From contig JAFQFS010000170.1 of NCBI GenBank assembly GCA_017398585.1, positions 7,043 to 71,042 on the forward strand: a stretch of 64,000 nt of DNA. The letters are read 5' to 3'. The notes beneath the pieces were generated by a model, which did no database searches, had not been told where the DNA came from, and saw only the letters and a list, made by a program, of their open reading frames with translations. The DNA comes from Clostridia bacterium. GTDB taxonomy: Bacteria; Bacillota; Clostridia; Oscillospirales; CAG-272. Position numbers and translations under genes: made by a program. This document shows, one piece after another, positions 6,829 through 58,032 of the stretch (its first letter is position 1; every line of letters starts with the position of its first letter).

Positions 6829-6885
6829 CCGGGGAAACCTTTTTGCAAAAAGGTTTCCCCGGACCCCTTCCAAAAATCTTTGGAC
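6829..6885. repeat. NPR repeat, solo unit (hairpin + flank), between atpG and atpD
   Basis: CCGGGGAAACCTTTTTGCAAAAAGGTTTCCCCGG hairpin followed by ACCCCTTCCAAAAATCTTTGGA; same module as 21 others in the window. Confidence 0.9.
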
Positions 6886-6912
6886 TGGATAAAAATATAT
6901 AGTTTGGTTTGA

Positions 6913-8328
<1,416 letters not shown>

Positions 8329-8613: not shown

Positions 8614-8854
8614 TATTTCTCGGGGAGAAACTTTTTGGAAAAAGTTTCTCCCCGAGCCCCTTTTCAAAAACTTTAAAACGAATAAGTACGACAAAGAAAG
8701 TGCAGATTTGAAGTTATAAAACTTCTGTAAAACCAGCAGAAATTTTGTTCCTTCAAATTTGCACTTTCTTTGTATGTCCAATTTGTTTAAAGTTTTTTGG
8801 AAAGGGTGTGGGGAAACCTTTTTGCAAAAAGGTTTCCCCACGAAAATTCAATTA
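8611..8854. repeat. NPR repeat, full-length composite copy (about 244 bp) filling the atpC / EF-G-like convergent spacer
   Basis: Hairpins at 8619-8656 and 8808-8840 in inverted orientation, flanks CCCCTTTTCAAAAACTTTAAA / TTTAAAGTTTTTTGGAAAGGG; core inverted repeat 8691-8713 pairs with 8751-8773 (22 of 23 nt). Confidence 0.9.
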
Positions 8855-10957: not shown

Positions 10958-11026
10958 GTTTTCTCGGGGAACCCTTTTTTTGGGAAAAAGGATTCCCCGA
11001 ACCCCTCCGAAAAACCTTTTTCGGAC
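10958..11026. repeat. NPR repeat, solo unit, in the 5' leader of the EF-G-like gene
   Basis: Imperfect hairpin CGGGGAACCCTTTTTTTTGGGAAAAAGGATTCCCCG plus flank CCCCTCCGAAAAACCTTTTTCGGA (self-pairing TCCGAAAAA/TTTTTCGGA). Confidence 0.85.
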
Positions 11027-11755: not shown

Positions 11756-11783
11756 GCACTTATCCTCGTTTCTATAATAGATT

Positions 11784-11860
11784 GAAAGTTTTTGAAAAGG
11801 GGTCTGGGGAAAAACTTTTTTTAAAAAGTTTTTCCCCGGCGTCCCCCTTTCTTAAAAATT
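11784..11860. repeat. NPR repeat, solo unit in flank'-hairpin-flank arrangement
   Basis: GAAAGTTTTTGAAAAGGGG + CTGGGGAAAAACTTTTTTTAAAAAGTTTTTCCCCGG + CCCCCTTTCTTAAAAATT; right flank overlaps the stop codon at 11852-11854. Confidence 0.85.
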
Positions 11861-12295: not shown

Positions 12296-12324
12296 TTGAC
12301 ACAGCGGGACTTTTGTGGTATAAT
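12296..12324 (+). promoter_or_regulatory. consensus sigma-70 promoter for the zur-znuABC operon
   Basis: TTGACA (12296-12301), 17-nt spacer, TATAAT (12319-12324). Confidence 0.65.
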
Positions 12325-12334
12325 TCAAATTTGA

Positions 12335-12349
12335 AATTGATTATCATTT
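12335..12349 (+). promoter_or_regulatory. Fur/Zur-type 7-1-7 operator candidate
   Basis: AATTGAT-T-ATCATTT (core TGATTATCA palindrome) 11 nt downstream of the -10 box; also the palindrome TCAAATTTGA at 12325-12334. Confidence 0.4.
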
Positions 12350-12402
12350 TTAAATTCAAAACCTTGAAAATTGCACAGACATAATTGATATTTTTTTGTT
12401 CT

Positions 12403-12474
12403 GAAGTTTTTTGAAAGGGGTCCGTGGAAAACTTTTTTTGAAAAAAGTTTTCCACGGAAAGAATATTTTTTATC
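12403..12474. repeat. NPR repeat, solo unit, in the zur 5' leader
   Basis: GAAGTTTTTTGAAAGGGG flank' + CCGTGGAAAACTTTTTTTGAAAAAAGTTTTCCACGG hairpin (GTGG/CCAC stem variant). Confidence 0.9.
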
Positions 12475-14633: not shown

Positions 14634-15503
14634 ATGTCCATCGCTGAATTATTTGCATCCGAATTCCTTATGCGCGTGGTGATCCGCGCTCTTGTCGTCG
14701 GCGTGCTCGTGTCCCTGTGCTCGTCCATTCTCGGCGTGAGCCTTGTCCTCAAACGTTATTCCATGATCGGCGACGGTCTGTCCCATGTCGGATTTTTCGG
14801 TCTCGCGATTGCCGCCTGCGCGGGTGCCGCATCGACTTATTCCATGGAAATTTCCATCCCGATCGTTATTCTTGCCGCCGTGCTGATCCTCCGTCTGTCC
14901 AAAAACGAAGGCCGCATGAACGGTGACGCCGCCTGCGCGGTCGTTTCCACGGGAGCGGTTGCGGTCGGTACCCTGATGTACAACTTCACCGGCGGACGAA
15001 GCGGCGATATCTGCAACTCGCTCTTCGGTTCCGCGTCCGTCGTCACGATCTCGGATAAGGATATGGTGCTGTCCATCGTTCTGTCCGCCGTTGTCCTCGG
15101 CTGGTTCCTCGTTTGCCGCAAGACCATTTTCTCCGTCACATTCGACGAGACGTTCGCCGGTGCTGCCGGGGTCAACACAGACGTGTTCGGCATTGTACTC
15201 GCCGTTCTGACCGGCGTGACCATCGTCGTCGGCATGAAAATGATGGGTTCGATCATGATCTCCGCCCTCATCATTTTTCCGGCACTCACCGCCATGCGCC
15301 TGACGAAAAGTTTTGGTACCACGGTCGGTCTGTCCGCCGTGATCTCGGTCGTCTGCTTCCTCGCGGGCTTCTTCACGGCGTGTGTCTTCTCGCTTCAGAC
15401 CGGTGCCGCCGTCGTCACCGCCGAACTCCTCTGCTTTGCGGTCGTCTGCGCCGTCACGGAAATCGCGGCGAAGGTACGCATCCGACAGAGAGGAAAACAG
15501 TGA
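14634..15503 (+). CDS. znuB: Zinc ABC transporter permease (ABC-3 family)
   Basis: 289-aa polytopic membrane ORF following znuC. Confidence 0.9.
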   Translation: MSIAELFASEFLMRVVIRALVVGVLVSLCSSILGVSLVLKRYSMIGDGLSHVGFFGLAIAACAGAASTYSMEISIPIVILAAVLILRLSKNEGRMNGDAACAVVSTGAVAVGTLMYNFTGGRSGDICNSLFGSASVVTISDKDMVLSIVLSAVVLGWFLVCRKTIFSVTFDETFAGAAGVNTDVFGIVLAVLTGVTIVVGMKMMGSIMISALIIFPALTAMRLTKSFGTTVGLSAVISVVCFLAGFFTACVFSLQTGAAVVTAELLCFAVVCAVTEIAAKVRIRQRGKQ

Positions 15504-15514
15504 ATTTACCGGTC

Positions 15515-15562
15515 AAAAAATCCCTCTTCCCGGGTTTCGGGGAGAGGGATCGTTGTTTTTTT
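15515..15562. terminator. bidirectional rho-independent terminator between znuB and the GH3 gene
   Basis: A-tract, TCCCTCTTCCCG / CGGGGAGAGGGA stem (one mismatch), then a T-tract. Confidence 0.7.
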
Positions 15563-15566
15563 GGAG

Positions 15567-17747
15567 TTACAGAAGTTTTCCGTCACGGACTCTGACTTCA
15601 AACGTATGACGGATATCCGTGCAGGACGTGCCGACGGAAACGGTGTAATCACCGTCGTGCATGCCATAGACCATTCTGCGGTTGTAATAGCAGAACGCAT
15701 CCGCGGGAACCTCCACGGTGACGGTGACGGTTTCGCCGGTGCGGACAAAGGTACGCTTGTACGCCTTCAGTTCAATGCGTGGCATGACGACGTCGCAGTT
15801 TCTGCCGGAGAGGTAAATCTGAACGACTTCCGCGCCGTCCATATCGCCGGTGTTTTCCACTGTCAGCGAAACGGTCAGGTGATCGCCGCAGGTTTCGCAG
15901 GTGCAGTTGTCAAGCGCAAAGGTGGTGTAGCTCAGGCCGTAGCCGAAGGGATACAGCGGGGAACCGTCGTTTTCCACATAACCGTAACCGCGTCCGGACG
16001 GCTTCGCACAGTAGAACAGCGGAAGCTGACCGACGCTGCGCGGGAACGTGATGGGCAGTTTCGCGCTCGGGTTGACTTCGCCGAAGAGAATCTCACAGAT
16101 CGCCTGTGCGCCCTGTTCGCCCGGATACCATGCTTCCAGAATGGCCCCGCATCCGTCAATCCAGCCGCGCATATCAACCGGCGCACCGTTGAGAAGGATG
16201 ACCGCCGCGTTGGGGTTGACCGCCGTCATCCGGCGGATGCTTTCTTCCTGGTCGGTCTTGACTTCGATTTCGAATTTGCCGACGATGACCGCGCTGTCGT
16301 CCTTCTGTGCCTTGCGGATGTACGCGGGCAGACGGATATCGGACCGGTCCATGCCTTCGCCTTCCACGACGGTGGTCATGTAGATCGCCGCATCGCACTT
16401 CGCGGCAACTTCTTCAATCCGGTCGTCGTCCGCGAAAATGACTTCCGCATAGCCGTCCAGGTATTCACGGAGAACCTGCAGGGGCGTCTTGGCGTCTTCG
16501 GCGGTCCATTCTTTGCCGTACGGGCCGGAATAGTTCTTTCCGACCGGGAAGACGTTTGCGCCGGCACCGAAGACGGCGAGGGTCTTGATATCATTGCGGC
16601 GGAAGGGAAGAACGCCTTCGTTCTTCAGCAGAATCATGGATTCGCGTGCCGCTTCCAGCGCGACCTGCTTGTGTTCCGCACAGCGTACCAGCCGTCCGGC
16701 GGCTTCCGGATCCGCAAACGGACGGTCGAACAGTCCGACGGCGAACTTGGCGGTCAGAACGCGCAGAACGGCGCGGTCGATATCTTCTTCGGTGATCCAG
16801 CCTTCGTCGTAAGCGGTCTTCAGCTTTTCAAAGGAGCTCTGCGGCAGGTTGACATCCAGTCCCGCTTTCAGGCAGAGCGCCTGCGCCTTCCAGTCGGTGT
16901 CGACCAGCTTGTGCGCTCCGCAGACGCCTTCCACTCCGCCGTAGTCGGAGACAACGAATCCCTCAAATCCCCATTCGTCCCGGAGAATTTCGGTGAGAAG
17001 ACGTTCGTTTGCAGAGCAGGGAACGCCTTCCCAGCTGTTGTACGCCGCCATGACGGACATCGCGCCGCCGTCCTTGAAGCAGTGTTCAAACGGTTTCAGA
17101 TAGACTTCACGCATGGTGCGTTCGGAAGTGTCGGAGACATTGGAGTCGCGTCCGCCGTAGGAATAGTTGTCCGCGTAATGCTTCGGAGTGGCAATGACGC
17201 CGTTGTTCTGGAGACCGCGGCAGATGGCCGTTCCCATCCGGGAGCTGACCAGCACGTCTTCGCCGAACGTTTCGATGGTACGGCCCCAGCGGCAGTCGCG
17301 TGCAATGTTGACGACCGGGGTCAGCGCCTGATGAACGCCGACCGCTGCGCATTCCTTCCCGATAATGTCCGCAATTTTTGCTGCCATCTCGTCGTCAAAC
17401 ATGGACGCCATGCCGATCGGCTGCGGGAAGCAGGTTGCCATGCCCCACTGTGCGCCGTGAAGGGCTTCGCCGTGTTCGAGCGGCGGGATTGCGTGCGGCT
17501 GTGCATCCATGCTCAGCTGAACGTCGCGGTTGATCCGTTCGGTGACTTCTTCGGGCGTTGCTGGAACATCTTTTCCGGCGTGCATGAAATGTCCGGGATT
17601 GCGGAAATTTCCCTGAAGGTGATTCCGCTTCTGTTCGTAGTCTCCGCCGACGGAATACAGCATCTGACCGGAAAGCTGATACAGCTTTTCTTCCAGAGAC
17701 AGCTGCGCCAGAAGCTCTTCCGCGCGTTTTTTGGGGGTGTTGTTCAT
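15567..17747 (-). CDS. Glycoside hydrolase family 3 (beta-glucosidase-like)
   Basis: 726 aa from ATG at 17747 (GAGGAAA RBS); nucleophile region GFEGFVVSDYGG; GH3 N- and C-terminal domains plus Fn3-like tail. Confidence 0.9.
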   Translation of the reverse strand: MNNTPKKRAEELLAQLSLEEKLYQLSGQMLYSVGGDYEQKRNHLQGNFRNPGHFMHAGKDVPATPEEVTERINRDVQLSMDAQPHAIPPLEHGEALHGAQWGMATCFPQPIGMASMFDDEMAAKIADIIGKECAAVGVHQALTPVVNIARDCRWGRTIETFGEDVLVSSRMGTAICRGLQNNGVIATPKHYADNYSYGGRDSNVSDTSERTMREVYLKPFEHCFKDGGAMSVMAAYNSWEGVPCSANERLLTEILRDEWGFEGFVVSDYGGVEGVCGAHKLVDTDWKAQALCLKAGLDVNLPQSSFEKLKTAYDEGWITEEDIDRAVLRVLTAKFAVGLFDRPFADPEAAGRLVRCAEHKQVALEAARESMILLKNEGVLPFRRNDIKTLAVFGAGANVFPVGKNYSGPYGKEWTAEDAKTPLQVLREYLDGYAEVIFADDDRIEEVAAKCDAAIYMTTVVEGEGMDRSDIRLPAYIRKAQKDDSAVIVGKFEIEVKTDQEESIRRMTAVNPNAAVILLNGAPVDMRGWIDGCGAILEAWYPGEQGAQAICEILFGEVNPSAKLPITFPRSVGQLPLFYCAKPSGRGYGYVENDGSPLYPFGYGLSYTTFALDNCTCETCGDHLTVSLTVENTGDMDGAEVVQIYLSGRNCDVVMPRIELKAYKRTFVRTGETVTVTVEVPADAFCYYNRRMVYGMHDGDYTVSVGTSCTDIRHTFEVRVRDGKLL

Positions 17748-17786
17748 GGTAAATTTCCTCATAATGATGTCTGATGATTTTTCGTT

Positions 17787-17860
17787 CAAAAAGGTTTTGG
17801 AGAGGGGTTCGGGGAGAACCTTTTCCTCAAAAAGGTTCTCCCCGAGAAACTTTATTTATC
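17787..17860. repeat. NPR repeat, solo unit between the GH109-like and GH3 genes
   Basis: CAAAAAGGTTTTGGAGAGGGG flank' + CGGGGAGAACCTTTTCCTCAAAAAGGTTCTCCCCG hairpin + outer arm AGAAACTTTATTTATC overlapping the stop codon at 17852-17854. Confidence 0.9.
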
Positions 17861-22539: not shown

Positions 22540-22775
22540 GGAGACACTTGGGGAAACCTTTTTGCAAAAAGGTTTCCCCAAACCCCTTCCCAAAAACTTT
22601 AAACGATTGTGTTGACAAAGAACGTGCAGAGCGTTTGAATCCGTAATTTTGTAAGCTGAACAAAATCAAGGTATTCCAAATCTGCACCCAACCTTGTCTG
22701 TCCATTTCGTTCAGAAGTTTTTGAAGATGGGGTTTGGGGAAGGAACTTTTTTCAAAAAGTTCCTTCCCCAAGGAC
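22540..22775. repeat. NPR repeat, full-length composite copy (reverse orientation relative to 58447-58695 and 62296-62547)
   Basis: Hairpins 22548-22581 and 22733-22771, flanks ACCCCTTCCCAAAAACTTTAAAC / CAGAAGTTTTTGAAGATGGGG; core GTGCAGAGCG...GGTATTCCAAATCTGCAC is the reverse complement of the 62.4 kb core. Confidence 0.9.
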
Positions 22776-27473: not shown

Positions 27474-27555
27474 TGGAAAATTGAGTTTTTCGGGGAAAAC
27501 CTTTTTGAGGAAAAGGTTTTCCCCGAACCCCTTTCCAAAACCTTTTGGAACCGGG
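27474..27555. repeat. NPR repeat, solo unit immediately after the mltG stop
   Basis: Outer arm GGAAAATTGAGTTTTT + CGGGGAAAACCTTTTTGAGGAAAAGGTTTTCCCCG + flank CCCCTTTCCAAAACCTTTTGGAA (self-pairing TTCCAAAA/TTTTGGAA). Confidence 0.9.
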
Positions 27556-27609: not shown

Positions 27610-27840
27610 TTAACGTGAGTTCGACGGGGAGAAACTTTTTGAAAAAAGTTTCCGAGTTTGCGAAGTAAACTCGTCCAAACCCCTCCTCAAAAACTTTCAG
27701 GCAAATGAAATAACAAGGTACAGTGTAAATCTAACAAAAAAATTGCACAAACTTTGTCATTTTATCCAGTTTAAAGTTTTTTGAAAAGGGTTCGGGGAAA
27801 ACTTTTTTTCAAAAAAGTTTTCCCCGAGAACTCCATCGAA
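27610..27840. repeat. NPR repeat, full-length composite copy (diverged)
   Basis: Left hairpin GGGGAGAAACTTTTTGAAAAAAGTTTCC interrupted by a 19-nt mini-hairpin (27654-27672); right hairpin CGGGGAAAACTTTTTTTCAAAAAAGTTTTCCCCG; shorter core with GTGTAAAT / ATTGCAC boxes. Confidence 0.85.
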
Positions 27841-28769: not shown

Positions 28770-28862
28770 CCGAAAAGGTTTTGGAAAGGGGACGAGACTT
28801 CCTGCGGAAGTCTCAGGGGAAACCTTTTCCTCAAAAAGGTTTCCCCGAAGAACTCCATTTTA
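28770..28862. repeat. NPR repeat, solo unit with nested mini-hairpin, in the yihY / nfo divergent spacer
   Basis: CCGAAAAGGTTTTGGAAAGGGG flank', inserted hairpin GAGACTTCC-TGC-GGAAGTCTC (28794-28814), GGGGAAACCTTTTCCTCAAAAAGGTTTCCCC hairpin, outer arm GAAGAACTCCATTTTA. Confidence 0.9.
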
Positions 28863-32964: not shown

Positions 32965-32997
32965 GAATCTGCCGTAAAATCTACGGCAGATTTTTTT
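32965..32997 (+). terminator. rho-independent terminator after gatB
   Basis: Perfect 11-bp stem AATCTGCCGTA / TACGGCAGATT, 5-nt loop, T-tract. Confidence 0.85.
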
Positions 32998-37940: not shown

Positions 37941-38010
37941 GAGAGTTTTCTCGGGGAAAACTTTTTCGAGAAAAAGGTTTTCCCCGAACCCCTTTCAAAA
38001 AGCTTTAAAC
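37941..38010. repeat. NPR repeat, solo unit between the PBP gene and murE
   Basis: GAGAGTTTTCTC outer arm + GGGGAAAACTTTTTCGAGAAAAAGGTTTTCCCC hairpin + flank CCCCTTTCAAAAAGCTTTAAAC. Confidence 0.9.
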
Positions 38011-38073
38011 TGGTTAAATAAAAAAATATAGGATTTCCAAAGATTCAATTCATTTCATTTCGGAGGAAATTCT

Positions 38074-47730: not shown

Positions 47731-47805
47731 CAATAAAGTTTTCGGGGGAAACCTTTTTAAGGAAAAGGTTTCCCCCGAACCCCTTTCCAAAACCTTTTTA
47801 AACGG
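47731..47805. repeat. NPR repeat, solo unit immediately after the ftsZ stop
   Basis: CAATAAAGTTTTC outer arm + GGGGGAAACCTTTTTAAGGAAAAGGTTTCCCCC hairpin + flank CCCCTTTCCAAAACCTTTTTAAAC. Confidence 0.9.
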
Positions 47806-50138: not shown

Positions 50139-50225
50139 TCCCCTTTCCATCCTAAAAAGGTTTGGGAAAGGGGCTCGGGGGAAACCTTTTCCTTAAAAAG
50201 GTTTCCCCCGAAAACTTTATTTGCT
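50139..50225. repeat. NPR repeat, solo unit (flank/flank' mini-hairpin + main hairpin)
   Basis: CCCCTTTCCATCCTAAAAAGGTTTGGGAAAGGGG + CGGGGGAAACCTTTTCCTTAAAAAGGTTTCCCCCG + outer arm AAAACTTTATTTGC. Confidence 0.9.
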
Positions 50226-53638: not shown

Positions 53639-54613
53639 ATGGCAAACGAAAACAGAATTGAAGTAAACGAAACCTCTTACAAGGCCGCGCAGGCTCTGAT
53701 CGCGGAAGTGGAAAAGGTTGTCATCGGTAAGCACAACGAGATCGTTCTCCTCGTTACGGCAATGCTTTCCGGCGGTCACGTACTGATCGAAGACGTACCG
53801 GGTACCGGTAAAACGACCGTTGCGGCTGCGCTTTCCAAGGCGGCCGGTCTCGACTTCAACCGTGCACAGTTTACTCCTGACGTTATGGCGTCCGACATCA
53901 CCGGCTTCAACGTATACAACCGTCAGAAGGAAGAATTCGAATTCCGTGAAGGTCTTGTTATGACGAACATCCTTCTCGCGGACGAAATCAACCGTGCCTC
54001 CCCGAAGACTCAGTCCGCGCTCCTTGAAGCGATGGAAGAAGCAAAGGTCACCGTCGACGGCACGACCTACCGTGTTCCGGACCCGTTTATGGTTATCGCA
54101 ACCCAGAACCCGACCGGTTACGTCGGTACCTACCCCCTCCCGGAAGCACAGCTCGACCGTTTCGCAATGCGTCTCTCGATGGGCTATCCGTCCGAAGAAG
54201 AAGAAATCAACATCATCTCTGACCGCCGCGGCGTGAACCCGCTCGACAAGGTCAACGCGATCACCAGCGTTGAAACCATCCGCGGCATCCGTGCAGCTGT
54301 TCAGAACGTTGCACTCGAACCCGAAATCTGCCGCTACATCGTTCAGCTTATCCACGCGACCCGTAAGTCCACCAAGCTCTCCCTCGGTGCTTCTCCGCGT
54401 GCATCCCTCCTTCTCATGAAGCTGTCCCAGGCGTACGCGTTCCTCCGCGGCCGTGATTACGTCCTCCCCGAAGACATCGCGTTCGTCTTCACCCCCGGTA
54501 TCGCTCACCGTATCGTCCTCTCCCAGGAAGCGCGCCTCAACCGCGAATCCCAGACCGACATCCTCTCCGAAATCCTCCGCACCGTTGAAGTGCCTTACAC
54601 GACCAAGAGATAA
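53639..54613 (+). CDS. MoxR family AAA+ ATPase
   Basis: 324 aa from ATG at 53639; Walker A PGTGKTT, Walker B LLADEINRA; start uncertain (TTG 53573 possible). Confidence 0.9.
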   Translation: MANENRIEVNETSYKAAQALIAEVEKVVIGKHNEIVLLVTAMLSGGHVLIEDVPGTGKTTVAAALSKAAGLDFNRAQFTPDVMASDITGFNVYNRQKEEFEFREGLVMTNILLADEINRASPKTQSALLEAMEEAKVTVDGTTYRVPDPFMVIATQNPTGYVGTYPLPEAQLDRFAMRLSMGYPSEEEEINIISDRRGVNPLDKVNAITSVETIRGIRAAVQNVALEPEICRYIVQLIHATRKSTKLSLGASPRASLLLMKLSQAYAFLRGRDYVLPEDIAFVFTPGIAHRIVLSQEARLNRESQTDILSEILRTVEVPYTTKR

Positions 54614-54666
54614 GGGGAGGATCGGAGAAACCTTTTTGCAAAAAGGTTTCCCCAGTAACCTCCTAA
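54614..54666. repeat. NPR hairpin-only copy between the convergent moxR and ACT genes
   Basis: GGAGAAACCTTTTTGCAAAAAGGTTTCCCC enclosed by GGAGG / CCTCC; no flank module; abuts both stop codons. Confidence 0.8.
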
Positions 54667-55146
54667 TTACAGTACAATATCAAAATTTTCATAAAGCGCT
54701 TCGGCCGCGCGGTCGGCGTCTGCCGTGCGGATCAGCATGGAGATCTTGATTTCACTGGTGGAAATATTGATGATCTGCACACCCGCATCCCAGAGGCAGC
54801 GGAACACCTTCGCCGCAACTCCCGGTTTGCCCTGCATTCCGACGCCCGACACCATCAGCTTCACGGCATCCGTGTCGATCTCGATTTCCGTCTCCGGCGA
54901 ATCCGCAAATTCCTTTTCCAGCACTTCCTTTGTACGCGCCGCGTCGACCTGATGCACGGTGAAAATGATGTCGCCGCTGATGTGTCCGGTCGAGGTCTGG
55001 AGGATGATGTCCACGTCCACGCCCGCTTCCGCCAGAGCGTTGAACGTGTAGTACGCAATGCCCATCTTCACCGGCGGGTTCTTTATGTATACGATCGCAA
55101 TGTCGTCGTCACGGCTGATGACGCTTACGCCGATTCCTGAATCCAT
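54667..55146 (-). CDS. ACT domain-containing protein (aspartokinase regulatory-domain-like)
   Basis: 159 aa with two ACT-like repeats (MGIAYYTFNALAEAGVDVD, PGVAAKVFRCLWDAGVQI); downstream of hom. Confidence 0.8.
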   Translation of the reverse strand: MDSGIGVSVISRDDDIAIVYIKNPPVKMGIAYYTFNALAEAGVDVDIILQTSTGHISGDIIFTVHQVDAARTKEVLEKEFADSPETEIEIDTDAVKLMVSGVGMQGKPGVAAKVFRCLWDAGVQIINISTSEIKISMLIRTADADRAAEALYENFDIVL

Positions 55147-57804: not shown

Positions 57805-57875
57805 CAAATGTACTTTTCCGTGGGAAACTTTTTTGAAAAAAAGTTTCCCACGGACCCCTTTCAAAAAACTTCAGA
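57805..57875. repeat. NPR repeat, solo unit abutting the XRE regulator start codon
   Basis: CCGTGGGAAACTTTTTTGAAAAAAAGTTTCCCACGG hairpin (GTGGG/CCCAC variant) + flank ACCCCTTTCAAAAAACTTCAG. Confidence 0.9.
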
Positions 57876-58032
57876 CAAAAAATTTGATTGAGTATTCCGG
57901 TACCGTTACATACAGTATACCGCATTTTCTGCGGAAACGGAAGACCTTCAAACGAAACGAAAACTTAACTGAAGGTTAAGTCCGCACAAAAACAAAGGAT
58001 TTCCAGCGTCAGAGCGTCCGGAAATCCCAGAT

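What the first reader, a model, noticed from the sequence alone, without database searches (positions are those of the whole stretch)
12422..12457. Compensatory covariation keeps every repeat hairpin perfectly paired
Stem sequences differ between copies, but both arms change together. Examples are GGGGAAACC/GGTTTCCCC (6.8, 8.8, 22.55 kb), GGGGAGAAAC/GTTTCTCCCC (8.62 kb), GTGGAAAAC/GTTTTCCAC (12.42 kb), GTGGGAAAC/GTTTCCCAC (57.82 kb) and GGGGAAGGAAC/GTTCCTTCCCC (22.74 and 62.31 kb). Further examples are GGGGAGGGAC/GTCCCTCCCC (58.46 kb), GGGGGAAACC/GGTTTCCCCC (47.74, 50.18 kb) and GGGGAGAACC/GGTTCTCCCC (17.81 kb). This implies either selection on the hairpin (RNA or cruciform DNA) or intra-palindrome gene conversion. 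It is not expected for neutrally decaying junk.
Basis: seen in the sequence. Interest (0 to 1): 0.6.

Follow-up and report, generated by a model that had tools for sequence, protein, structure and literature searches.

The report
Mobile palindromic repeat family, arms co-varying
The flagged hairpin is one copy of a very abundant, REP/REPIN-like palindromic repeat that has inserted between the genes of an uncultured gut Oscillospiraceae bacterium; its two arms do change together, as already described for such repeats, so it is a new family of a known kind.

Summary
The 64-kb window holds 21 copies, plus one interrupted copy, of a 32-38 bp palindrome. Of 335 stem pairs, 329 are Watson-Crick (98.2%). 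Dealing the arms out again among copies gives 69.5% (maximum 82%). There are 11 symmetric stem variants. "Every" is overstated: 3 copies carry 1-2 mismatches.

Each hairpin belongs to a larger asymmetric unit: about 10-15 nt, the palindrome, then ACCCCTYTYCAAAAAMCTT. Units often sit as inverted doublets of about 225 bp.

The focal copy lies in a 118-bp insertion in the fur leader. That insertion is absent from three sibling species. Other copies are also present or absent between relatives, and the family is dense only in the closest relatives.

A related composite of about 265-300 nt occurs in Desulfomonilaceae-like contigs. Its central hairpin is hypervariable yet stays paired.

Copies at orthologous sites change both arms together, including mirrored 1-nt deletions. 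Some copies decay.

Best reading: a REP/BIME/REPIN- or MITE-like mobile element. Its arm symmetry would come from copying of symmetric masters, plus hairpin-dependent maintenance or arm-to-arm conversion at the DNA level.

No RAYT or other transposase was found. The GTAG tag is absent. An RNA-level function is not excluded.

The parts
12354..12471 (-). Focal element: a 118-bp insertion (+/-2 nt) in the fur 5' leader. Read on the - strand it is 15 nt, then palindrome 12421-12458, then GACCCCTTTCAAAAAACTTCAGAAC...GTGCAATTTTCAAGGTTTTGAAT.
   Evidence: Absent from the orthologous site in L001, L003 and L004, which read CACCTGAT|TTAAAAATGATAATC. The palindrome is seen.
6829..6886 (+). Unit between atpG and atpD: palindrome 6829-6862 (GGGGAAACC type, no loop) plus GACCCCTTCCAAAAATCTTT flank.
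   Evidence: Orthologous copies in L002 and L003 have different but symmetric stems.
8619..8841 (+). Inverted doublet (composite) between atpC and the EF-G-like gene: palindromes 8619-8656 (GGGGAGAAAC) and 8808-8841 (GGGGAAACC).
   Evidence: (77-nt arms, 75% complementary). L002 has a small RHH gene between the two units; L003 has no hairpins here.
10964..11025 (+). Unit in the leader of the EF-G-like gene. Palindrome 10964-11000 has one C.A mismatch.
   Evidence: Compared with L001 and L002 (GGGGAGAACC), both arms lost one base at mirrored positions. The L003 copy is decayed and L004 has none.
11781..11837 (-). Unit between the MIF-like and flavin-reductase-like genes: palindrome 11806-11837 (GGGGAAAAAC).
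   Evidence: Core and flank are identical in L001 and L003; L004 lacks the unit.
17784..17845 (-). Unit with a 5-nt loop: palindrome 17809-17845 (GGGGAGAACC).
   Evidence: The orthologue in L210 reads GGGGAGGAAC/GTTCCTCCCC.
22548..22771 (+). Composite between ftsK and tmk: palindromes 22548-22581 (GGGGAAACC) and 22734-22771 (GGGGAAGGAAC).
   Evidence: Absent in L004 and L213. L210 has a GTAG-tagged doublet there instead.
27489..27551 (+). Unit after mltG/yceG: palindrome 27489-27527 (GGGGAAAACC, loop TGAGG).
27626..27700 (+). Interrupted copy. The right arm is split by a 21-nt mini-palindrome (27653-27673), followed by the CCCCTCCTCAAAAAC flank.
27768..27827 (-). Unit after the brkB-like gene: palindrome 27792-27827 (GGGGAAAAC).
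28770..28849 (-). Unit in a divergent spacer: palindrome 28813-28849 (perfect core 28816-28846). A mini-palindrome at 28794-28814 sits between it and its CCCCTTTCCAAAACC flank.
37951..38012 (+). Unit inside the dcw cluster, after the PBP gene. Palindrome 37951-37987 has one T.G mismatch.
   Evidence: The mismatch is identical in strains L201, L203 and L205. The site is empty in L211 and L210.
47741..47803 (+). Unit after ftsZ: palindrome 47741-47779 (GGGGGAAACC, loop TAAGG).
50150..50211 (-). Unit after the DUF1667 gene: palindrome 50175-50211 (GGGGGAAACC).
54623..54654 (.). Palindrome with two mismatches and no ACCCCT flank. It lies exactly at the breakpoint of a rearrangement relative to conspecific contigs.
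57817..57877 (+). Unit of the GTGG subfamily (GTGGGAAAC), the closest relative of the focal copy.
58459..58681 (-). Composite: palindromes 58646-58681 (GGGGAAACC) and 58459-58494 (GGGGAGGGAC).
62313..62538 (-). Composite: palindromes 62505-62538 (GGGGAAAAC) and 62313-62350 (GGGGAAGGAAC).

Best explanation
The hairpins are the cores of a non-coding, multi-copy, insertional repeat family of the REP/BIME/REPIN or MITE kind.

Anatomy. The basic unit is about 10-15 nt (RAGTTTTC-like), then a 32-38 bp palindrome, then ACCCCTYTYCAAAAAMCTT and up to about 70 nt more. The full form is an inverted doublet of about 225 bp that can fold as one long hairpin or as a cruciform. Single units look like half elements.

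Shown here:
- Copies insert into intergenic DNA.
- They are retained at orthologous sites for a long time.
- They occur in subfamilies with linked stem, loop and flank variants.
- Both arms change together at orthologous sites, including mirrored 1-nt deletions.
- Some copies decay.

Inferred mechanism. The element is mobilised as a folded single strand by a hairpin-recognising enzyme encoded elsewhere in the genome, a RAYT- or IS200-like HUH transposase being the obvious candidate. Only well-paired hairpins would then give rise to new copies. In resident copies, one arm would be copied from the other (template switching within a quasi-palindrome during replication or repair), or whole units would be overwritten from other copies. 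Such processes turn a one-arm change into a two-arm change in one step.

The hairpin is probably tolerated, not required, by the host. It sits inside the atp and dcw operons and in the fur and EF-G leaders, and it lacks a U-tract, so it is not a strong terminator.
For: Insertion and empty sites:
- The focal 118 bp are missing in L001, L003 and L004.
- The ftsK-tmk composite is missing in L004 and L213.
- The 37951 site is empty in L211 and L210.
- The EF-G 3' hairpins are missing in L003 and L004, which have ordinary terminators there.

Lineage restriction: about 3 copies per 10 kb in the window, L001 and L002. Fewer in L003, L210 and L213. None near the EF-G-like gene in relatives with 83% protein identity or less.

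Doublets: four composites share one polarity and are only 53-70% identical overall, yet each terminal palindrome is perfect.

Superfamily: the same architecture occurs in Desulfomonilaceae-like contigs. 26 of 60 predicted pairs show both-side changes, and the element has long terminal inverted repeats.

Arm symmetry: 98.2% Watson-Crick against 69.5% when arms are re-dealt.

Orthologous two-arm changes:
- atpG-atpD site: CCGGGGAAACC, TTTGGGGAAACC and TTGGGAAAAAC in three species, all perfect.
- EF-G leader: GGGGAGAACC becomes GGGGAAYCC in both arms, with a mirrored 1-nt deletion.
- 17809 site compared with L210.

DNA-level signs:
- Steps between variants include transversions and mirrored indels.
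- Complementarity runs to within 0-2 nt of the centre, where a hairpin cannot pair.
- Non-Watson-Crick pairs are not enriched for G.T.
- Orientation relative to genes is mixed in the Desulfomonilaceae-like set.

Precedent: REPINs are inverted REP doublets with common compensatory changes, and singlets are read as remnants (PMC3116915). REPs and BIMEs are defined in PMC8266576.
Against: - No transposase was identified. phmmer with E. coli RayT found nothing in 1.94 Mb of fetched loci. No conserved neighbouring gene exists. The window encodes only housekeeping genes among the 30 ORFs scanned.
- The GTAG tag of classical REPs is absent. A GGGG(T) motif 2-3 nt from the stem takes its place, and in doublets it faces inward, not outward.
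- No clear target-site duplication or terminal inverted repeat bounds the focal insertion.
- Most copies start 6-18 nt after a stop codon on the coding strand. All five composites of this lineage have the same end next to the upstream gene. That could mean selection at the transcript level.
- Arm-to-arm conversion is inferred from the pattern, not observed.
- Only about 5 orthologous sites could be compared.
Confidence: 0.6

Rival explanations
1. The host selects these as RNA hairpins. Transcribed at gene ends and between cistrons, they would protect upstream mRNA from 3' exonucleases, attenuate transcription, or act as processing sites. Pairing would be kept by ordinary compensatory evolution under selection on RNA structure. 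The repeat would spread because it is useful.
For: - 13 units begin 6-44 nt after the stop codon of a gene on the same strand.
- Relatives have ordinary terminators at some of the same places (L003 and L004 after the EF-G-like gene, L005:5157).
- All 5 composites of this lineage have the same polarity relative to the upstream gene.
- The two single mismatches whose transcribed strand can be inferred (10964, 37951) would be G.U in the predicted transcript.
- Orthologous copies are conserved more than neighbouring spacer DNA.
- REPs are known to stabilise mRNA (established knowledge; reference 33 listed).
Against: - No U-tract follows the stem, and canonical terminators are not enriched.
- Copies lie inside the atp and dcw operons and in 5' leaders, and occur in both orientations (10964, 57819, 12423).
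- Orientation is mixed in the Desulfomonilaceae-like relatives.
- Wobble pairs are rare: 2 G.T against 3 A.C in the window, and 4 against 14 in the metagenome sample.
- Pairing extends into the central 0-2 nt, which RNA folding does not need.
- No Rfam family matches.
- RNA selection does not explain the insertion polymorphism.
Confidence: 0.2
2. Youth alone explains the pattern. All copies would be recent transposition products of a few perfectly symmetric master copies, with no process maintaining pairing after insertion. Perfect arms would only mean there has been no time to decay.
For: - Subfamily structure: stem variants are linked to loop and flank variants.
- The focal copy is a young insertion.
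- Density is highest in this species.
- Older or foreign copies are less perfect: 61% and 24% in the two metagenome classes, and one mismatch each in L213.
Against: - Copies at the atpG-atpD, EF-G 3', EF-G leader and MIF sites are shared with species whose DNA is 10-17% diverged. They remain perfect or nearly so, and show two-arm differences between species.
- Composites are only 53-70% identical overall but have perfect terminal palindromes.
- The model does not explain how 11 different symmetric masters arose.
Confidence: 0.1
3. These are double-stranded DNA binding sites for a dimeric protein (a regulator, nucleoid protein or gyrase-like factor). Symmetry would be kept because both half-sites must fit the same protein.
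For: - The palindrome is perfect through the centre in the no-loop copies.
- Copies lie in intergenic regions.
- REPs and BIMEs are known to bind IHF, gyrase and Pol I (established knowledge).
Against: - A protein site predicts conservation of one consensus half-site. It does not predict 11 different half-sites each matched by its own mirror image.
- It does not explain the insertions, the asymmetric flank or the doublets.
Confidence: 0.05

Closest known systems
REP / BIME / REPIN elements with RAYT (TnpA-REP) transposases (E. coli, Pseudomonas, Stenotrophomonas)
   Same: - Extragenic palindromes of 20-50 nt at very high copy number.
- A one-sided conserved motif next to the stem.
- Frequent inverted doublets with a linker that fold into a long hairpin or a 'clover'.
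- Singlets that look like remnants.
- Lineage-specific families retained at orthologous sites.
- Compensatory changes across the hairpin, already reported for REPINs (PMC3116915; PMC8266576).
   Different: - There is no GTAG tag. A GGGG(T) motif stands 2-3 nt from the stem, followed by a long conserved flank (CCCCTYTYCAAAAAMCTT).
- In doublets the tagged sides face inward.
- The palindromes have a G+C-rich outer stem and an A/T-run inner stem.
- No RAYT was found.
- The host is an uncultured Oscillospiraceae, with relatives of the element in Desulfomonilaceae-like contigs.
Palindromic MITEs such as Correia (Neisseria) and ERIC/IRU (Enterobacteria)
   Same: - Non-coding elements of 100-300 bp that are imperfect palindromes over their whole length.
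- Inserted in intergenic and intercistronic DNA, and co-transcribed with genes.
- Present or absent between relatives.
   Different: - No demonstrated target-site duplication, and no known parent insertion sequence.
- There are nested perfect palindromes at the ends. In the Desulfomonilaceae-like form there is also a hypervariable central hairpin that stays paired.
Template-switch correction of quasi-palindromes during replication (Ripley model; E. coli studies; cited from established knowledge)
   Same: It converts an imperfect inverted repeat into a perfect one in a single event. It therefore produces two-arm substitutions and mirrored indels like those seen between orthologous copies.
   Different: It is known as a mutational mechanism at single loci. 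Here it is only inferred as the force keeping a whole repeat family symmetric.
Intrinsic (Rho-independent) terminators
   Same: A stable G+C-containing hairpin placed a few nucleotides after stop codons. Relatives carry true terminators at some of the same sites.
   Different: No U-tract follows the stem, because the T-run lies inside the stem. Copies are present inside essential operons and in 5' leaders, and share one sequence family genome-wide.

Membership tests
REP/BIME/REPIN | Short (20-50 nt) palindromes, extragenic, at high copy number | tested here: met
   There are 21 copies of 32-38 bp in 64 kb. None lies within the homology-supported part of a gene, although some overlap the N-terminal extension of an ORF as called (e.g. 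22694, 56645, 58033 and 58696).
REP/BIME/REPIN | Conserved tetranucleotide, most often GTAG, directly 5' of the palindrome | tested here: not met
   There is no GTAG. A conserved GGGG(T) lies 2-3 nt from the stem on one side only. A few stems start with GTGG (12423, 57819, 8809). A true GTAG-tagged doublet occurs in sibling L210 but belongs to a different family.
REP/BIME/REPIN | Inverted doublets separated by a linker that can fold into a larger hairpin | tested here: met
   There are four composites, at 8619-8841, 22548-22771, 58459-58681 and 62313-62538, plus one in L201. At 8651-8813 the arms are 77 nt long and 75% complementary.
REP/BIME/REPIN | A cognate RAYT/TnpA-REP gene flanked by the repeats (REPtron) | tested here: inconclusive
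   None was seen among the 30 window ORFs scanned against Pfam. phmmer with E. coli RayT found nothing in 1.94 Mb of loci. The rest of the genome could not be read.
MITE | Small non-coding multi-copy element with filled and empty sites between genomes | tested here: met
MITE | Terminal inverted repeats and a target-site duplication | tested here: inconclusive
   Composites, and the Desulfomonilaceae-like form, are palindromic to their ends. Single units have no terminal inverted repeats. At the focal site only an imperfect TGAT(T)TAAAAAT-like duplication is possible.
MITE | A parent insertion sequence with the same ends | tested here: inconclusive
   No conserved gene lies next to or between units in 120 metagenome loci. 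The genes found between units are housekeeping genes.
Intrinsic terminator | G+C-rich stem-loop followed directly by a U-tract | tested here: not met
   The stem is followed by (N)ACCCCT on one strand and GAAAACT on the other. Only 17809 passed the terminator scan, and terminator-like sites were not enriched (29 found against 23.8 expected).
Curated structured RNA (Rfam 15) | A match to a covariance model at its gathering score | tested here: not met
   No hit in the window. Only tRNAs were found in 15 loci that carry the related composite.

The most novel reading that the evidence does not exclude
The hairpin units and their ~225-300 nt nested-palindrome composites may form an undescribed superfamily shared between Bacillota (Oscillospiraceae) and Desulfobacterota (Desulfomonilaceae-like). 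It has no GTAG tag and possibly no RAYT. Its near-perfect pairing, including a hypervariable central hairpin, would be maintained by an active strand-symmetrising process or by an unknown hairpin-specific mobilising enzyme. Alternatively, the four-way fold could be a functional RNA or single-stranded DNA structure used by the host.
Probability: 0.2. Interest if true: 0.7.

Novelty: new member of a known kind. Interest (0 to 1): 0.42.

Why it matters
If the reading is right, this uncultured gut Oscillospiraceae carries on the order of one such palindrome per 3 kb. That density is my extrapolation from the window. These repeats shape its intergenic DNA in several ways:
- They have inserted into the fur and EF-G leaders and inside the atp and dcw operons.
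- They replace ordinary terminators at some gene ends.
- They break metagenome assemblies.
- One sits at a rearrangement breakpoint.

The family extends the REP/REPIN-type phenomenon, including co-variation of hairpin arms, to Clostridia, with relatives in a distant phylum. It offers many natural replicates for asking whether arm symmetry is kept by selection on mobility or by arm-to-arm conversion. The covariation itself is not a new principle.

Tried and rejected
- Rfam at gathering thresholds on the window and on 15 related loci found nothing except tRNAs.
- The sigma-70 promoter and terminator scan showed that the hairpins are not canonical terminators. The conserved flank is not a convincing promoter (and inspection).
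- Search for a mobilising gene, all negative:
  - Pfam on 30 window proteins.
  - Clustering of ORFs next to 120 metagenome copies.
  - ORFs between inverted units.
  - phmmer with E. coli RayT against all ORFs of 1.94 Mb.
- Strain-level comparison (nine contigs, 99-99.9% identical) showed no variation inside hairpins, so it gave no rate information.
- The MAFFT alignment of the 21 copies (A2) was not mirror-symmetric for copies with loops of 0 or 2 nt. I therefore did the pairing and permutation counts in a script and did not use the count of structure pairs.
- One protein search was wasted on a probably spurious ORF.
- Literal sequence strings of the repeat occur in no paper of the library. 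A keyword search for such repeats in Clostridia returned only noise.
- I considered a Tn3-type end (GGGGTCTG). I rejected it because the motif is internal to the inserted DNA and only 8 nt long.
- I considered that the hairpins are duplicated palindromic target sites. I rejected this because the two hairpins of a doublet differ, and because the focal insertion carries its hairpin internally.

Full report
**1. The observation**

Window 12421-12458 reads TCCGTGGAAAACTTTTTT tg AAAAAAGTTTTCCACGGA, a perfect 18+18 nt palindrome. As single-stranded DNA it folds at about -18 kcal/mol, z about -7 against shuffles.

There are 21 full copies in all: 6830, 8621, 8809, 10964, 11806, 12423, 17809, 22549, 22736, 27490, 27793, 28813, 37951, 47742, 50175, 54623, 57819, 58460, 58647, 62315 and 62505. 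One further copy, at 27626, is interrupted.

Seventeen perfect palindromes have arms of at least 15 nt. Thirty first-order Markov simulations of the window gave none.

Of 335 stem pairs, 329 are Watson-Crick. The rest are 2 G.T, 3 A.C and 1 other. Pairing each left arm with the right arm of a different copy gives 69.5 +/- 3.4% complementarity, never above 82% in 2000 permutations. Eleven different stem haplotypes are each exactly mirrored in the second arm.

"Every" is an overstatement. Copy 10964 has one mismatch, 37951 has one and 54623 has two. A search on one arm alone, which does not presuppose pairing, gave the same census. The hairpins are identical in nine independent assemblies of the same species, so they are real.

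**2. What the hairpin belongs to**

The palindrome is not free-standing. Every copy has an asymmetric context: an upstream RAGTTTTC-like stretch and a downstream (N)ACCCCTYTYCAAAAAMCTT(W)AAAC flank.

Two classes exist. One has a 5-nt loop (TGAGG or TAAGG) and ..AAACCTTTT arms. The other has a 0-2 nt "loop" and a longer A/T inner stem.

Stem variants travel with particular loops and flanks. For example, both GTGG copies share GACCCCTTTCAAAAAACTTCAGA. Both GGGGAAGGAAC copies share AAACCCCATCTTC. Both GGGGGAAACC copies share AATAAAGTTT upstream. These are subfamilies.

Eight hairpins form four inverted doublets of about 225 bp: 8619-8841, 22548-22771, 58459-58681 and 62313-62538. All have the same internal polarity: hairpin A, flank, TGACAARG..GTGCAGAGCG..GGTATTCCAAATCTGCAC, flank', hairpin B of the GGGGA(A/G)GGAC type. 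They are only 53-70% identical overall, yet their terminal palindromes are perfect.

**3. Host and gene context**

The window is housekeeping chromosome:
- the atp operon
- an EF-G-like gene
- a MIF-like gene
- fur
- ftsK and tmk
- mltG
- gatB
- the dcw cluster with ftsZ
- moxR, DUF58 and transglutaminase genes

The closest genomes are uncultured Oscillospiraceae/Clostridia gut MAGs.

Thirteen units begin 6-44 nt after a stop codon on the coding strand. Others lie between atpG and atpD, after the PBP gene inside the dcw cluster, in the leader of the EF-G-like gene, and in the fur leader (the focal copy).

No U-tract follows the stem, and terminator-like sites are not enriched (29 found against 23.8 expected). 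The hairpins therefore cannot be strong terminators. Rfam has no match.

**4. The units are insertions**

At the focal site, L001, L003 and L004 read CACCTGAT|TTAAAAATGATAATC. The window has 118 extra bases there (12354-12471). They contain 15 nt, the palindrome, and 68 nt of flank ending in GTGCAATTTTCAAGGTTTTGAAT, that is, half of a doublet. The insertion lies between the Fur box and the fur ribosome-binding site. No clean target duplication or terminal repeat is visible.

Other sites show the same presence/absence pattern:
- The ftsK-tmk doublet is absent from L004 (67-nt spacer) and L213 (19-nt spacer).
- The 37951 site is empty in L211 and L210.
- The hairpins after the EF-G-like gene are absent from L003 and L004, which carry ordinary terminators there. 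L005 has an ordinary terminator at the site of 17809.

The family reaches about 3 copies per 10 kb in the window, L001 and L002. It is rarer in L003, L210 and L213. It was not seen near the EF-G-like gene in relatives with 83% protein identity or less.

**5. Evolution at orthologous sites**

DNA identity to the window is 81-93% for L001-L003 and about 71-83% for L210-L213.

| Site | Finding |
|---|---|
| atpG-atpD | Window CCGGGGAAACC.., L002 TTTGGGGAAACC.., L003 TTGGGAAAAAC... Each is perfectly mirrored. At least four pair positions changed on both sides and none on one side. L003's flank resembles L003's own other copy, which suggests whole-unit replacement or conversion. |
| EF-G leader | L001 and L002 have GGGGAGAACC/GGTTCTCCCC. 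In the window both arms lost one base at mirrored positions (GGGGAAYCC), with one later mismatch. The L003 copy is decayed. |
| MIF site | Core and flank are identical in three species, while the adjacent spacer diverged. |
| 17809 site | Window GGGGAGAACC, L210 GGGGAGGAAC. |

Decay also occurs. The L210 mltG-brkB copy has two mismatches and the L213 copies have one each. Strain-level contigs show no differences inside hairpins, and the 37951 mismatch is fixed in the strains that cover it.

**6. A wider superfamily**

A metagenome scan used a pattern that specifies only the last four stem bases and the flank. It returned window-like copies and a large set from contigs of 51-60% G+C. One of these contigs encodes WaaA, whose best named relatives are Desulfomonilaceae, so that host is a diderm of another phylum.

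There the element is a composite of about 265-300 nt:
- outer inverted repeat
- HP1 (GGGGAGAACCTTTTTGAAAAAAGGTTCCTCCCC)
- CCCCTCTCCAAAAACTTCT
- a 17-19 bp central hairpin whose sequence differs almost completely between copies but stays paired
- AGAGTTTCTTGAAGGGGG
- HP3
- outer repeat

This is shown. RNAalifold predicts 60 pairs, and 26 of them have both-side changes. Rfam has no match. Orientation relative to neighbouring genes is mixed.

In this pairing-blind sample only 28 of 71 hairpins are perfect. By class, 19 of 31 are perfect with the window-like flank and 10 of 42 with the other flank. G.T mismatches (4) are not favoured over A.C (14) or other mismatches (10).

**7. Interpretation**

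Neutral decay of independent arms is excluded (sections 1 and 5). The pattern has three components.

(a) Inheritance. A limited number of symmetric master sequences were copied, so counts across copies overstate the number of independent events.

(b) Replacement or conversion of whole units by other copies.

(c) A process that restores or demands symmetry within a copy.

For (c) I favour DNA-level explanations: hairpin-dependent mobility, and arm-to-arm templated correction. The reasons are:
- Steps between variants include transversions and mirrored indels.
- Complementarity runs to within 0-2 nt of the centre.
- Wobble pairs are not favoured.
- Copies occur in both orientations.

This matches REPINs, for which inverted REP doublets, remnant singlets, a "clover" fold and common compensatory changes were described (PMC3116915). 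REPs are defined as palindromes of 20-50 nt preceded by a conserved tetranucleotide, organised in BIMEs and associated with TnpA-REP (PMC8266576). RAYT group 1 also occurs in Clostridia (PMC5581495).

Membership is not established. The GTAG tag is absent. The tagged sides face inward in doublets. No RAYT or other transposase was found.

A host RNA role remains possible (about 0.2). It is supported by the position after stop codons, the consistent polarity of the five composites of this lineage, and the replacement of ordinary terminators.

**8. Verdict**

The thing is a new family of a known kind (REP/BIME/REPIN- or MITE-like), with an unreported relative in another phylum. Interest is moderate.

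Noticed in passing
window 27653-27673; 28794-28814; L002:~12-33: Tiny (about 21 nt) secondary palindromes are nested in or beside hairpin units. CGAGTTTGCGAAGTAAACTCG splits the right arm of copy 27626. GAGACTTCC-tgc-GGAAGTCTC separates palindrome 28813 from its flank. CGAGTTTGCGGAGCAAATCTCG sits in the loop of the L002 orthologue of 10964. They may be a second, smaller insertion element, or products of template switching.
   Followed up: partly
window 54600-54700 and 62486-64000, compared with L201:18060-20142: Conspecific contigs (99.9% identical) continue from moxR through a composite into the DUF58 gene on the same strand. In the window the DUF58-transglutaminase block is inverted. The breakpoint falls exactly in palindrome 54623-54654, the copy with two arm mismatches. 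This is either a real inversion between inverted copies or a misassembly at the repeat.
   Followed up: partly
window 8727-8737, compared with L002:2300-2530 and L003:6700-8240: A 63-aa RHH/CopG-like gene lies between the two hairpin units in L002, and is also present (without hairpins) in L003. It is deleted in the window, which brings the two half elements together into a near-perfect 225-bp palindrome.
   Followed up: partly
L210:6530-6675: At the ftsK-tmk spacer a sibling species carries a classical-looking GTAG-tagged REP doublet (CGTAGG-GACACGGCGAGCCGTGTC ... GGACACGGCACGCCGTGTCC-CTACG) where the window has its own composite. This hints that REP/RAYT-type systems exist in this clade.
   Followed up: partly
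L004:3850-4250, 7150-7300, 15400-15560: L004 lacks the family. It has its own repeats: a tandem 30-nt unit GCCGATTCATGCCTGTCGCCTCAGGCGACC, and a repeated GACATCCCACGACAATGYTATTGGTGCAGAT motif. The latter shares GTGCAGATTTGG with the centre of the window composites.
   Followed up: no
window 12296-12360: A consensus sigma-70 promoter (TTGACA-17-TATAAT with TG) and a Fur-box-like sequence (AATGATAATCAATTTCA on the - strand) lie upstream of fur. The focal element is inserted between them and the fur ribosome-binding site, so the fur leader now contains a 17-18 bp hairpin.
   Followed up: partly
L207 end, L201 end, L081, L097, L154 and L118 starts: Contigs from many assemblies start or stop inside these palindromes, so the repeat fragments metagenome assemblies of this lineage.
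   Followed up: no
L216:7590-7680; L217:1380-1470: Two of the three IMG/VR 'viral' contigs that match the flank pattern carry a full hairpin plus flank of the Desulfomonilaceae-like type. They may be prophage or host DNA.
   Followed up: no
window 15567-17789: A 740-aa gene on the - strand, next to hairpin 17809, is absent from the syntenic region of L210.
   Followed up: no
window 32966-32992 and 15520-15550: Ordinary terminator-type hairpins with T-tracts (AATCTGCCGTA aaatc TACGGCAGATT ttttt after gatB; ATCCCTCTTCCCGGGTTTCGGGGAGAGGGAT) coexist with the repeat family. The organism therefore does use canonical terminators.
   Followed up: no
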